From the NCBI GenBank assembly GCA_965219995.1, contig CBDCOX010000002.1, positions 160,001-224,000 on the forward strand: a DNA stretch of 64,000 bases. The letters are read 5' to 3'. This DNA is from Candidatus Latescibacterota bacterium. Lineage in GTDB: Bacteria > Latescibacterota > UBA2968 > GCA-2709665. A model generated the notes under the pieces. That model saw nothing but the letters and a program-made list of their open reading frames with translations. It did not search any database and was not told the origin of the DNA. A program made the translations under genes and the position numbers. This document shows, piece by piece, positions 2,859 to 4,585 of this stretch (its first letter is position 1; the number at the start of each line of letters is the position of its first letter).

Positions 2859-4022
2859 TCAGTGGATCAGCCGCTCTTCCAGTGCGGGAAAGGGGTGCGG
2901 AATGAGATGGGCCGACACGAGTTCACCGTACCTCTCCGCTTCCTCGGCCCCGACTTGCAGGGCGGTGCGCACCGCGCCGACGTCTCCCCGGACAACGCTT
3001 GCCGTGAGAAAGTACCCGACCTTGTATCGACCCTCGAATTCCACGTCCGCGGACTTCAGCATCTGATCCACGGCTTTGACCAGGGCCACGGTACTGCGCG
3101 TCTCGATCAGACCCATGGCCTGATTCCCGCTCGTGGCTCTTACGGCCTCGCTTCGGCCGAAACAGGCCATGATTTCGGAAGACGGACGGGAAACGACACA
3201 GGATGCATTCAATTCTCCGGCCTCCTGCGCGCCGTCGACACCGGCGTCGACGGCCGCCTGGACGGCGTCCAGGCGGCCTTTCACCAGTGCGTCCACCCGG
3301 CCTCCGCTGGCGATGACAAGGCGCACGAGGTCGACGTCCGCCGCTTTGACCATGGCGTCGGAACCGCCGACCGCGCTGGCGTAACCCGTTGTTTCAAGCA
3401 CACCGAGCGCACCGGCGTCCGCCCGGGGTCCGTTTGAAACCGGTGGTCCCGGAAGCAGCGGCTCGACGCCCGCCTCCGGCCTCGGAATCATAAGGGTCGC
3501 GTAAACTTCCCCGACCTCATCGGCACACGCTTTGCCGGCCTGCAGGGCAGTCTGGACCGATGAAATGTCGCCCCGGACCACGAGATGAACCAGCGCGCCG
3601 CCAACGGACGTCCAACCGGCGACGCGAACGGGCGCGCTTTTGACCATCGCGTCGGCGCCGCGGATGAGGGGTACCATGCCCCGCGTTTCGAGGATGCCCA
3701 TCGCCCCCGCGCCGAACGGGCCTGTCGTGACCGCGTCCGTCCTGTGCGGCATGGACTCGAGGGCGCCCGGGACCGGTCCCGCGATAACGTCGGCGGTGAT
3801 CAGGTCGCCGTGGTTTACGGCTTCGGATCGTCCGGCTCGAATGGCGGCCTCAACTTCCGATACGACGCCTTCGATTACAACCGTCAACCAGCCCGATCCC
3901 ACGCCGTGACGTCCCAGAACCCGAACGTCCACGGTCTTCAGCATGGCGTCCACGGCCGCGACAAGCGCGGTCATGCCGCGGGTTTCCAGAATGCCCAGGG
4001 CGTGATTTCGCGGGGGCGCCAC
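2859..4022 (-). CDS. BMC shell protein with four tandem BMC (Pfam00936-type) domains
   Basis: Four repeats of A(L/M)G(I/V/L)(L/I)ET..DxM(L/V)K..G..V..A..G..P; GTG start at 4022 is tentative with no clear SD; may be the 3' part of a frameshifted six-domain gene. Confidence 0.9.
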   Translation of the reverse strand: MAPPRNHALGILETRGMTALVAAVDAMLKTVDVRVLGRHGVGSGWLTVVIEGVVSEVEAAIRAGRSEAVNHGDLITADVIAGPVPGALESMPHRTDAVTTGPFGAGAMGILETRGMVPLIRGADAMVKSAPVRVAGWTSVGGALVHLVVRGDISSVQTALQAGKACADEVGEVYATLMIPRPEAGVEPLLPGPPVSNGPRADAGALGVLETTGYASAVGGSDAMVKAADVDLVRLVIASGGRVDALVKGRLDAVQAAVDAGVDGAQEAGELNASCVVSRPSSEIMACFGRSEAVRATSGNQAMGLIETRSTVALVKAVDQMLKSADVEFEGRYKVGYFLTASVVRGDVGAVRTALQVGAEEAERYGELVSAHLIPHPFPALEERLIH

Positions 4023-4027
4023 GGCGC

Positions 4028-4585
4028 TCAGGGACCGAATGCCCGCAGGACGTCGGGCAATGGTCTGGTGATGAGGGCGGCGCCCAGGAAGTTCTCGCCG
4101 GCCTCGACGCTCGTGCGGCCCACGGGCAGGGCTTCGGTCACGGAAGCCACGTCGCCAAGTATCAGGGAGCAGACCACCCGGTTGTGTACGGTGAGCACGT
4201 TGTAGACCTGGACGTCGGCCGCCTTCACCATTTTGTCGTTGGCGGTGACGTGGGCGCCATATCCTCTCGTTTCGATCATACCCAGCGCTCCGGACGGTGT
4301 CCGCCGTGGGGATGCGACTGCATTCGAGACGTATTCCCTGCAAACGGGTTCAGGATGCGTCATTGGCGCCGCCACGACGTGGTCCGCCACCTCTTTGGCC
4401 GCCTGTTCCCCGCTCCTGAGCGCCGTTGCCACGCGGCTGATGGATCCGCCGAAGAAAACGGTGGTGAATCCACCGATGGACTCCCAACCCAGAAGATCCA
4501 CGCCAGCGGCTTTGCAGGCCGCGTCCGACGCCAGAATAATCCCGGCGACGCCTTCGACTTCGATCATGCCGATCGCTGCTGACAT
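4028..4585 (-). CDS. BMC shell protein with two tandem BMC domains
   Basis: AIGMIEVEG..DAACKAA and ALGMIETRG..DKMVKAADV repeats; GGAAG upstream of the ATG. Confidence 0.9.
   Translation of the reverse strand: MSAAIGMIEVEGVAGIILASDAACKAAGVDLLGWESIGGFTTVFFGGSISRVATALRSGEQAAKEVADHVVAAPMTHPEPVCREYVSNAVASPRRTPSGALGMIETRGYGAHVTANDKMVKAADVQVYNVLTVHNRVVCSLILGDVASVTEALPVGRTSVEAGENFLGAALITRPLPDVLRAFGP

What the first reader, a model, noticed from the sequence alone, without database searches (positions are those of the whole stretch)
2859..4585. Six different BMC domains (2+4), one base out of frame: a candidate single-chain or heterodimeric asymmetric shell hexamer
Seen: one ORF has 2 canonical (non-permuted) BMC domains and the next has 4, exactly one hexameric tile in total. 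At the junction the minus strand reads TTC GGT CCC TGA GCG CCG. One extra C gives FG-PLSAVAPPRNH-ALG and a continuous 575-aa chain. That linker matches the other linkers in length (e.g. FG-RSEAVRATSGNQ-AMG). The GTG at 4022 has no clear SD. Known: shell tiles are BMC-H homohexamers or BMC-T trimers of 2-domain proteins, and a 4-domain chain cannot close a ring alone. Inference: either a natural six-domain single-chain tile (assembly indel, -1 frameshift or slippage) or an obligate 2+4 heterodimer. I know of no characterized example.
Basis: partly seen in the sequence, partly recalled or inferred. Interest (0 to 1): 0.92.

Follow-up and report, generated by a model that had tools for sequence, protein, structure and literature searches.

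The report
Split six-domain microcompartment shell tile
Two neighbouring genes, one with two and one with four shell-protein domains, are kept as a pair in dozens of bacterial species and probably join one-to-one into a single six-sided microcompartment shell tile whose six positions all differ, a tile design not described so far.

Summary
ORF A (4028..4585, minus strand, 185 aa) has 2 PF00936 domains. ORF B (GTG 4022..2859, 387 aa) has 4. B lies in the -1 frame, 5 nt after A's TGA.

The single-chain reading (assembly indel, frameshift, slippage) is not supported. In 66 of 66 complete related loci a stop codon ends A before B, and no fused six-domain ORF was found. B's frame relative to A varies (+1 in 38, -1 in 21, 0 in 7). 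Many loci have overlapping stop/start codons with GGAGG-type ribosome sites.

A and B are present together in 18 of 41 related genomes and absent together in the other 23. Each of the six domain positions forms its own clade. A complex model closes the ring, with A2 touching B1 and B4 touching A1. The ipSAE score is 0.63 against 0.04 for the best control. That pass may partly reflect likeness to solved hexamers.

Best reading: a conserved, translationally coupled 2+4 heterodimer that forms a fully asymmetric pseudohexamer tile. It is linked to a DHDPS-family enzyme that carries a conserved N-terminal module. The assembly state is not shown experimentally.

The parts
4028..4585 (-). Gene A: 185-aa shell protein with two non-permuted BMC domains (A1, A2). 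Ends in TGA at 4030..4028.
   Evidence: Orthologues at 46-98% identity in 66 loci.
4370..4576 (-). Domain A1 (PF00936). Conserved pore-loop signature G-W-x-S-I-G-G-x-T-T.
   Evidence: E 3.3e-16. consensus over 67 sequences. Clade support 100.
4061..4288 (-). Domain A2 (PF00936). Unusual glycine-free pore loop V-L-T-V-H-x-R-V-V-C.
   Evidence: E 8.6e-15. Invariant V130 L131 V133 V137 V138 C139, and H134 nearly invariant. Clade support 100.
4023..4027 (-). 5-nt spacer (GCGCC) between A's TGA and B's GTG. No Shine-Dalgarno-like sequence.
2859..4022 (-). Gene B: 387-aa shell protein with four non-permuted BMC domains (B1-B4). GTG start, -1 frame relative to A.
   Evidence: At least 250 homologues; the best 120 are 366-424 aa. 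AlphaFold2 pLDDT 88.2, pTM 0.86.
3774..4001 (-). Domain B1 (PF00936). Pore-loop signature G-R-H-G-i-G-S-G-W. Modelled against A2.
   Evidence: Clade support 94.
3477..3704 (-). Domain B2 (PF00936). Signature G-W-a-f-i-G-G-A-L-x-H.
   Evidence: Clade support 70.
3183..3410 (-). Domain B3 (PF00936). Signature R-L-x-I-g-S-G-G-R.
   Evidence: Clade support 99.
2892..3119 (-). Domain B4 (PF00936). Signature G-x-Y-K-V-G-Y-x-L-T-A. Modelled against A1, closing the ring.
   Evidence: Clade support 99.
1650..2819 (-). Linked gene: 389-aa DHDPS/NAL-family class I lyase. It has a conserved N-terminal module of about 50 aa, then a variable linker (residues about 51-73), then the catalytic domain.
   Evidence: PF00701 E 1e-56 over residues 74-361. 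Below every NCBIfam equivalog cut-off. Follows B in 17/17 genomes and 64/66 loci. Alignment.
2670..2819 (-). N-terminal module of the DHDPS-family protein (residues 1-50, predicted beta-alpha-beta-alpha-beta). It is shared with a small Cys-rich protein encoded just upstream of A in other lineages.
   Evidence: 46% identity, E 3e-12 to L097:4839-5285. Two copies flank A-B in 43 of 71 loci. pLDDT 74-82 over residues 1-50 and 33 in the linker. No Pfam hit.

Best explanation
A and B are two genuine, separately translated genes that are translationally coupled. Their products most likely join 1:1 into one closed pseudohexameric shell tile with domain order A1-A2-B1-B2-B3-B4. All six positions, and therefore all six pore loops and all six edges, differ. 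The tile has no internal symmetry.

The tile would sit in the facets of the genome's PVM-like metabolosome, whose main locus lies 2.2 Mb away. Its role would be a specialised pore and/or a unique docking site tied to the co-encoded DHDPS-family lyase.

Shown: the gene structure, its conservation, the co-occurrence of A and B, and the orthology of each domain position.

Inferred: the 1:1 ring (from a model plus genetics), insertion into the shell, and any pore or docking role.
For: Two genes:
- A stop separates A and B in 17/17 genomes and in 66/66 complete loci of the 71 fetched. These two sets overlap.
- B's frame relative to A is +1 in 38, -1 in 21 and 0 in 7 loci.
- B's start lies -11 to +15 nt from A's stop. 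GGAGG-type sites are often embedded in A's 3' end.
- Homologues of B start M-x-x-x-A-[LI]-G.

Partnership:
- A and B orthologues are present in the same 18 of 41 related genomes and not found in the same 23.
- They are always adjacent, in the same order, and single copy.

Six fixed positions:
- In a tree of 20 taxa x 6 domains, each position is one clade. SH-aLRT support is 100, 100, 94, 70, 99, 99.
- Each position has its own conserved pore-loop signature.

Geometry:
- B alone folds with pTM 0.86.
- Consecutive domains superpose on the synthetic BMC-H tandem fusion 6NER, with target TM-score 0.89-0.92.
- The A+B model has median ipSAE 0.63 (runs 0.71, 0.60, 0.63) against a best control of 0.04. 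That mark was reached by 58 of 80 solved complexes and 2 of 110 mismatched pairs. The runs share at least 98% of contacts and the partner's pLDDT is at least 87.
- A2 (107-138) touches B1 (9-93). A1 (7-87) touches B4 (309-366). A's last residue, 185, touches B.

Tiling: the D-x-x-x-K lysine is kept in all six domains.

Shell context:
- The genome has 2 BMC-H and 3 BMC-P genes with AldDh, a class II aldolase and acetate kinase.
- In other lineages A-B lies inside the main locus.
Against: No experiment or read data were available. The stoichiometry rests on a structure model whose interface type (BMC domain beside BMC domain) is abundantly solved, so the pass may be from memory (caveat stated).

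I could not model the rivals. An A homotrimer, or B with BMC-H monomers, needed a second complex job, and three copies of B exceed the size limit.

The window's own genus has no Shine-Dalgarno site before B's GTG. Equal expression there depends on termination-reinitiation, which is inferred.

Profile comparison of the six positions gave no clear internal pattern that would show how the arrangement arose. Branching between positions is unresolved.

The pore or docking role is inference only.
Confidence: 0.62

Rival explanations
1. A is an ordinary BMC-T-type protein that forms its own homotrimer. B assembles in another way. Its four-domain arc could be completed by two BMC-H monomers, or three B chains could build two linked tiles. 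Adjacency would then reflect only shared regulation.
For: A has the canonical two-domain length of BMC-T proteins. BMC domains in general pack side by side, so the model cannot exclude other partners. The genome has two BMC-H genes that could in principle fill gaps.
Against: A and B share exactly the same presence/absence pattern: 18 genomes with both, 23 with neither, of 41. They are adjacent and coupled in 66/66 loci.

Lineages that carry A-B also have a separate canonical 186-aa two-domain protein. A is therefore not simply the locus's BMC-T.

All three linkers inside B have the same conserved length of 20-26 residues. None is a longer linker that could bridge two tiles.

A1 and A2 are the most divergent positions and carry unique conserved pore loops.
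Confidence: 0.25
2. A single six-domain chain is the real product. The stop would be an assembly indel, or would be bypassed by programmed -1 frameshifting, slippage or TGA readthrough.
For: The virtual junction peptide has about the length of a linker. No Shine-Dalgarno site precedes the GTG. In G008, G012 and G013 the two genes are in frame and separated only by TGA, so rare readthrough could give a minor fused product.
Against: A stop is present in all 17 genomes and in 66/66 loci, many from independent assemblies. All three stop codons and all three frame relations occur, which no single recoding mechanism fits. There is no X XXY YYZ heptamer at GGT CCC TGA (the motif rule is recalled).

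No fused protein is among the best 120 homologues of 212-678 aa. The only longer A-like protein is a gene call that goes out of frame.
Confidence: 0.03
3. The pair is a decaying remnant, a broken multi-domain gene with no present function.
For: The window locus is a satellite, 2.2 Mb from the main BMC locus.
Against: Both ORFs are intact in every complete locus. Identity falls only to 46-50% across lineages labelled with different phyla, with dozens of invariant residues. The Atlas cluster has 457 members.
Confidence: 0.02

Closest known systems
BMC-T(s) standard tandem shell proteins (PduT, CcmO type)
   Same: Non-permuted PF00936 domains joined by short linkers in one chain. Consecutive domains occupy neighbouring positions of a hexagonal tile. 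CcmO and PduT models give the best NCBIfam partial matches.
   Different: BMC-T has two domains and closes the ring as a homotrimer with threefold symmetry. Here one chain has four domains and cannot close alone, and the proposed ring is a heterodimer without symmetry. All NCBIfam scores are below the equivalog cut-offs. No solved chain among 54 PDB sequence matches exceeds 213 aa.
Synthetic BMC-H tandem fusion in the Haliangium ochraceum shell (PDB 6NER)
   Same: It is the best structural match. Two consecutive B domains superpose with target TM-score 0.89-0.92 and rmsd 1.7-3.2 A. It is also the best PDB sequence match, E 3.1e-38.
   Different: It is engineered, with two identical domains, and assembles as a trimer. 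The natural pair has six different domains split 2+4.
CcmK3/CcmK4 heterohexamers of beta-carboxysomes (Sommer et al. 2019; I saw only its entry in a reference list; the content is recalled)
   Same: A natural shell tile made from more than one gene product, encoded by adjacent genes at a satellite locus. This breaks sixfold symmetry.
   Different: Those are single-domain chains that mix in variable ratios. Here the composition and order would be fixed by covalent linkage (2+4), giving one defined asymmetric tile.
FRAG and PVM-like BMC loci (Sutter et al. 2021, PMC8217296, passages seen; Axen et al. 2014, PMC4207490, passages seen)
   Same: Shell genes are scattered over several sites, with a BMC-P triplet. 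FRAG is reported from Gemmatimonadetes. The main locus has AldDh and a PF00596 aldolase. The window locus fits Axen's definition of a satellite-like locus.
   Different: Searches of the main texts of these papers for multi-domain terms found no shell protein with more than two domains (Sutter 2021; Axen 2014). Their supplementary locus tables could not be opened.

Membership tests
BMC shell-protein superfamily (PF00936) | PF00936 domain above Pfam's gathering score | tested here: met
   A scores 109.1 bits with 2 stretches. B scores 259.5 bits with 4 stretches. The cut-off is 24.5. Six separate genomic matches are over the cut-off.
BMC shell-protein superfamily (PF00936) | Genome also encodes vertex pentamers (PF03319) and other shell or core genes | tested here: met
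   Three PF03319 genes and 2 BMC-H genes, with AldDh, a PF00596 aldolase and acetate kinase, lie at C2:2.393-2.400 Mb.
BMC shell-protein superfamily (PF00936) | Edge lysine of the D-x-x-x-K motif used for tile-tile contacts (the motif's role is recalled, from PduA/CcmK work) | tested here: met
   The K is conserved in at least 90% of 67 sequences at all six positions.
BMC-T(s) (standard tandem trimer) | Exactly two PF00936 domains per chain | tested here: not met
   A has two, but B has four. B homologues are uniformly 366-424 aa.
BMC-T(s) (standard tandem trimer) | Assembles as a homotrimer | not testable with these tools
An A trimer was not modelled, and three copies of B (1161 aa) exceed the 1000-residue limit.
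Permuted BMC classes (BMC-Hp, BMC-Tsp, BMC-Tdp) | Circularly permuted domain order | tested here: not met
   All six matches run collinearly over profile positions 1-72/75. The secondary-structure order is beta-alpha-beta-beta-alpha-beta in each domain.
Programmed ribosomal frameshift or recoded gene | Conserved frame relation and a conserved shift or readthrough site across relatives | tested here: not met
   Frame offsets are +1 in 38, -1 in 21 and 0 in 7 loci. Stops are TAG in 34, TGA in 23 and TAA in 9.
Heterodimeric 2+4 pseudohexamer (proposed here; no established family) | Both ends of A contact both ends of B, so that six domains close one ring | tested here: inconclusive
   The model passes: 0.63 against 0.04 for the best control, with A2-B1 and B4-A1 contacts. 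It is only a prediction and may reflect likeness to solved hexamers.
DHDPS/NAL class I lyases (neighbour gene) | PF00701 domain; equivalog-level assignment to DapA, NanA, KDG aldolase and so on | tested here: inconclusive
   PF00701 E 1e-56. All seven NCBIfam models are far below their cut-offs; the best is 162 bits against 281. The nearest solved protein is the KDGal aldolase YagE, E 1.7e-36. Family membership is met; the specificity is unknown.
BMC encapsulation peptide (neighbour gene's N-terminus) | Terminal extension absent from non-BMC homologues, joined by a poorly conserved linker (definition recalled) | tested here: inconclusive
   The extension and variable linker are present. The module is a predicted alpha/beta unit of about 50 aa, not the usual single amphipathic helix of about 18 aa. 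There is no Pfam match.

The most novel reading that the evidence does not exclude
This would be the first natural microcompartment shell tile with no symmetry at all: an obligate 2+4 heterodimer whose six different domains build one unique pore. The pore would be lined by conserved His, Arg, Lys, Tyr and a single Cys. The tile would also offer one unique docking face, recognised by the conserved N-terminal module of about 50 aa. That module is carried by the two proteins that flank the pair: the DHDPS-family lyase and, in other lineages, a small Cys-rich protein. The tile would then be a dedicated cargo-anchoring and substrate-gating unit present in defined copy number.
Probability: 0.3. Interest if true: 0.85.

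Novelty: new variant of a known kind. Interest (0 to 1): 0.7.

Why it matters
Microcompartment shells are described as built from three tile types: homohexamers, homotrimers of two-domain proteins, and pentamers. Every known facet tile has at least threefold (pseudo)symmetry. Its pore and its binding faces therefore come in multiples.

A natural tile fixed as six different domains in a set order would give one unique pore chemistry and one unique binding site per tile. Shell engineers have tried to reach this with synthetic fusions such as 6NER.

The pair is conserved in at least 66 species-level genomes, always with the same enzyme gene. That makes two questions directly testable with a small set of proteins: how asymmetric tiles assemble, and how specific cargo is tied to specific tiles.

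It also shows that gene catalogues which count only one- and two-domain shell proteins can miss an architecture.

Tried and rejected
Frameshift or assembly-error reading: rejected on comparative grounds.

Fused forms were sought in four ways and none was found:
- The best 120 of 250 homologues of B in the 212-678 aa range. The other 130 were not listed.
- Proteins of 325-2000 aa resembling A. The one hit, P0121, goes out of frame. The tool notes that finding none in this search is weak evidence.
- 71 genomic loci.
- 17 related genomes.

Internal periodicity: I tested whether the six domains show a 2- or 3-domain repeat, because A aligns best to B2-B3. Profile-profile scores show no clear pattern, and the tree does not resolve branching between positions. 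I dropped the idea.

Promoter and terminator scan: nothing above shuffled expectation that bears on the pair.

N-terminal module of the lyase: no Pfam hit at E up to 10. The Atlas look-alikes all score below 0.9. One weak lead is PF15953 at rank 19, score 0.76, carried by 12% of that cluster's members. I do not rely on it.

DHDPS-family protein model: poor overall (pLDDT 61.8). I used it only for the N-terminal module and linker, and sent it to no fold search.

Read mapping over 4025-4035 could not be done. The look-up of sequencing runs gave no usable answer and then reported its cap as used. Read laying was never called.

Literature: no paper holds 'four BMC domains'. In one search no listed paper held 'six BMC domains', 'three BMC domains' or 'single-chain hexamer'. 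No paper listed holds both 'microcompartment shell' and a multi-domain term. Supplements were closed, so the locus tables of Sutter 2021 and Axen 2014 may list these genes without my seeing it.
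Full report
**What is there.**
On the minus strand, ORF A (4028..4585, 185 aa) is followed after 5 nt by ORF B (GTG 4022..2859, 387 aa). Pfam finds the BMC domain PF00936 twice in A (E 1e-31) and four times in B (E 1.2e-78). A scan of the whole genome places six separate matches over the cut-off in this stretch. 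All are collinear with the profile, so the domains are not permuted. The junction reads TTC GGT CCC TGA GCGCC GTG, B is in the -1 frame, and no Shine-Dalgarno-like sequence precedes the GTG.

**Genomic setting.**
The window is C2:160001-224000 of a 5.4-Mb, two-contig genome. Its only other BMC-domain genes are two single-domain BMC-H genes. These lie at 2.393-2.400 Mb together with three PF03319 pentamer genes, an aldehyde dehydrogenase, a class II aldolase (PF00596) and acetate kinase. That is a PVM-like metabolosome locus. The comparison with the PVM type is recalled, and Sutter 2021 links PF00596 to PVM and GRM5 (passage seen). The window locus is therefore a satellite. Closest named relatives are MAGs labelled Candidatus Latescibacterota or Gemmatimonadota.

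**One gene or two.**
I compared the junction in 17 related genomes and in 71 loci from a scan of one genome per species. The two sets overlap.

Of the 71 loci, 5 were set aside. L090, L096 and L099 are cut by contig ends. L094 lacks A on its contig. In L097 the stored DNA ends inside B, but one search shows the same overlapping start.

In the other 66 of 66 loci, A ends in a stop before B. No continuous six-domain frame exists.
- The stop is TAG in 34, TGA in 23 and TAA in 9.
- B's frame relative to A is +1 in 38, -1 in 21 and 0 in 7.
- B's start lies between -11 and +15 nt of the stop. For L061 the script listed no candidate, but a GTG at -5 is visible in the printed sequence.
- The commonest form is GTGTCTAG preceded by GGGAGG. 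Another is TGATG.
- In G036 an AAGGAGG stands before an ATGA overlap.

These are the usual marks of translational coupling of two genes. No single frameshift or readthrough mechanism fits three frame relations and three stop codons. An assembly indel cannot recur in dozens of independent assemblies.

Database searches agree. The best 120 of 250 homologues of B, in a search that allowed 212-678 aa, are 366-424 aa long. The only protein longer than 324 aa that resembles A is P0121 (411 aa), whose sequence runs out of frame after A2 and again after B2. I read it as an error-laden gene call. Read mapping in this genome itself could not be done.

**Are A and B partners.**
In 41 related genomes, orthologues of B and of A (E at most 1e-25) occur in the same 18 and were not found in the same 23. 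Counts by genus are g1 13/14 (without G000), g5 2/2, g7 1/1, g8 1/1, and none in g2, g3, g4, g6 or g9. A and B are single copy, adjacent and in the same order everywhere.

I cut 67 A-B pairs into six domains. A tree of 20 diverse taxa x 6 domains, plus the two BMC-H genes of the main locus, makes each position one clade. SH-aLRT support is 100, 100, 94, 70, 99, 99. The run used the quick IQ-TREE method on 82 columns, and 47 of the 67 taxa were left out to keep the tree small. The six positions were therefore distinct before these lineages split and have kept their order since.

Each position has its own conserved pore-loop signature. All six keep the lysine of the D-x-x-x-K edge motif.

The four intrachain linkers have medians of 20-22 residues. 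A's tail plus B's head sums to a median of 24, and to 17 in this genome. The break therefore sits where a linker would be.

**Structure.**
AlphaFold2 folds B with an alignment of 23 sequences at pLDDT 88.2 and pTM 0.86. Foldseek's best PDB matches are chains of 6NER, a synthetic tandem fusion of two BMC-H domains, with target TM-score 0.89-0.92. Among 54 PDB sequence matches no chain exceeds 213 aa, so no solved chain has more than two BMC domains.

The complex job (A as partner, both chains with alignments) gave ipSAE 0.71, 0.60 and 0.63, median 0.63, against a best control of 0.04. That mark was reached by 58 of 80 solved complexes and by 2 of 110 mismatched pairs. The tool says these counts hold only roughly, because my own alignments were used. 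The runs agree in at least 98% of contacts and the partner's pLDDT is at least 87.

Contacts involve B residues 9-93 (B1) with A 107-138 (A2), and B 309-366 (B4) with A 7-87 (A1). B 141 and A 185 also touch the other chain. That pattern is a closed ring A1-A2-B1-B2-B3-B4. BMC hexamers and trimers are well represented among solved structures. The pass therefore shows that these chains can be laid into a hexagon, not that they prefer each other over themselves.

**The linked enzyme.**
The next gene (1650..2819) is a DHDPS/NAL-family protein: PF00701 E 1e-56 over residues 74-361. It is below every NCBIfam equivalog cut-off. The nearest solved protein is the keto-deoxy-galactonate aldolase YagE. 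It follows B in 17/17 genomes and 64/66 loci (absent in L051 and L069).

It is more conserved than the shell proteins, with mean column identity 78%. Its N-terminus has a conserved module of about 50 aa followed by a variable Ala/Pro/Ser-rich linker. The model predicts beta-alpha-beta-alpha-beta at pLDDT 74-82 for the module and disorder for the linker, though the whole model is poor at 61.8.

The same module heads a small Cys-rich protein encoded just upstream of A in other lineages: 46% identity, E 3e-12. Two copies flank A-B in 43 of 71 loci. This genome has only the lyase copy.

In L048 and L097 the pair lies inside a full metabolosome locus. Both have PduL-type PTAC, a separate canonical two-domain BMC protein and a BMC-H. 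L097 also has a BMC-P gene (PF03319), and L048 an AldDh. So A is not simply the locus's BMC-T.

**How it most likely works.**
Shown: two coupled genes, strictly co-inherited, and six fixed paralogous domain positions that all retain tiling residues.

Inferred: coupling yields near-equal amounts of A and B. B forms a four-domain arc, and A fills the two-domain gap to close a pseudohexamer that tiles into facets beside BMC-H. Because no two positions are alike, the tile would have one unique pore and one unique inner face.

The pore-loop positions carry conserved H39 and R38 (B1), H134, R136 and C139 (A2), R242 (B3), and Y333 and K334 (B4). Whether these point into the pore was not checked on coordinates. 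The basic character would suit an anionic substrate or product of the lyase, but that is speculation. The recurrence of the N-terminal module on both flanking genes suggests that it docks on this tile. That is also untested.

**Comparison and novelty.**
The parts belong to the BMC shell superfamily. The architecture does not fit BMC-H, BMC-T or the permuted classes.

The main texts of the papers I searched describe only one- and two-domain proteins. These were the Sutter 2021 catalogue, the MCPdb paper and a 2025 preprint on archaeal microcompartments. My term searches of Axen 2014 found no multi-domain shell protein either. Phrase searches found nothing on four- or six-domain shell proteins. 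Supplements could not be opened.

I rate it a new variant of a known kind. It is of clear interest to shell structural biology and engineering, with the assembly state still to be shown.

Noticed in passing
L048:3545-3991, L097:4839-5285 and 44 further loci (not in the window's genome): A small protein of about 132-180 aa is encoded just upstream of A in 46 loci. It has the same N-terminal module as the lyase, then a variable linker, then a conserved Cys-rich motif (G-R-C-x-x-P-x-R-x-C-G-C ... E-E-F-G-S-G-Y-V-E-P-x-x-C-x-x-C-A ... C ... G-C-N-R). It ends in a C-terminal amphipathic helix that looks like a classic encapsulation peptide. It may bind a metal or an Fe-S cluster. No Pfam family matches.
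   Followed up: partly
L048:257-8968: In another lineage the cassette reads AldDh, 105-aa ORF, PduL/PTAC, two-domain BMC, BMC-H, Cys-rich protein, A, B, module-bearing DHDPS-family lyase, FAD-dependent oxidoreductase (PF01266 DAO), second DHDPS-family gene. A DAO-type dehydrogenase beside a DHDPS-family enzyme recalls the bacterial hydroxyproline pathway, whose deaminase yields an aldehyde (alpha-ketoglutarate semialdehyde). This is recalled, not tested, and the window's genome lacks the DAO gene at this site.
   Followed up: no
window 4061..4288 (domain A2): The pore loop of A2 lacks the usual glycines and reads V-L-T-V-H-x-R-V-V-C. V130, L131, V133, V137, V138 and C139 are invariant and H134 nearly so in 26 sequences. 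A single conserved His and Cys at one of six pore positions is unusual.
   Followed up: partly
P0121 (database protein, 411 aa): This public gene call begins as A1-A2, drifts out of frame, resumes as B1 and the start of B2, then drifts out again. It probably comes from an indel-rich contig. It shows how automatic calls can mimic a fusion.
   Followed up: partly
G008, G012, G013 (L025, L024, L023) and G021 (L026): In three same-genus genomes A and B are in the same frame, separated only by TGA and 9 sense nucleotides. In G021 the separator is TAA. Rare stop readthrough could give a minor fused product there. Nothing suggests it is used.
   Followed up: no
window 7236..11807 and 11876..13882 (minus strand): A 1523-aa ORF has a C-terminal FtsX-like permease domain (PF02687). 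It is preceded on the minus strand by a 668-aa DUF6785/DUF6784 membrane protein (11876..13882) and followed by an 806-aa membrane protein with no Pfam match at 4691..7111, directly upstream of A. This large membrane gene set of unknown function is conserved next to the BMC pair within the genus.
   Followed up: no
window 628..1692 and 3..812 (minus strand): Downstream of the lyase gene lie a CehA/McbA-family metallohydrolase (PHP-like, NF038032, E 8e-26) and a PhyH-family dioxygenase. The hydrolase gene overlaps the lyase gene's end and is conserved there within the genus. It may belong to the same pathway.
   Followed up: no
L029-L041 record titles: Genomes that the genome tool places in one genus with the window carry different NCBI phylum labels (Candidatus Latescibacterota and Gemmatimonadota). 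The phylum name of this clade is therefore unsettled in public records.
   Followed up: no
L100:5826-7316 (G000 main BMC locus): A 496-aa ORF directly upstream of the first BMC-H gene of the main locus has no Pfam family and only marginal NCBIfam matches. It is a possible unknown metabolosome component.
   Followed up: no
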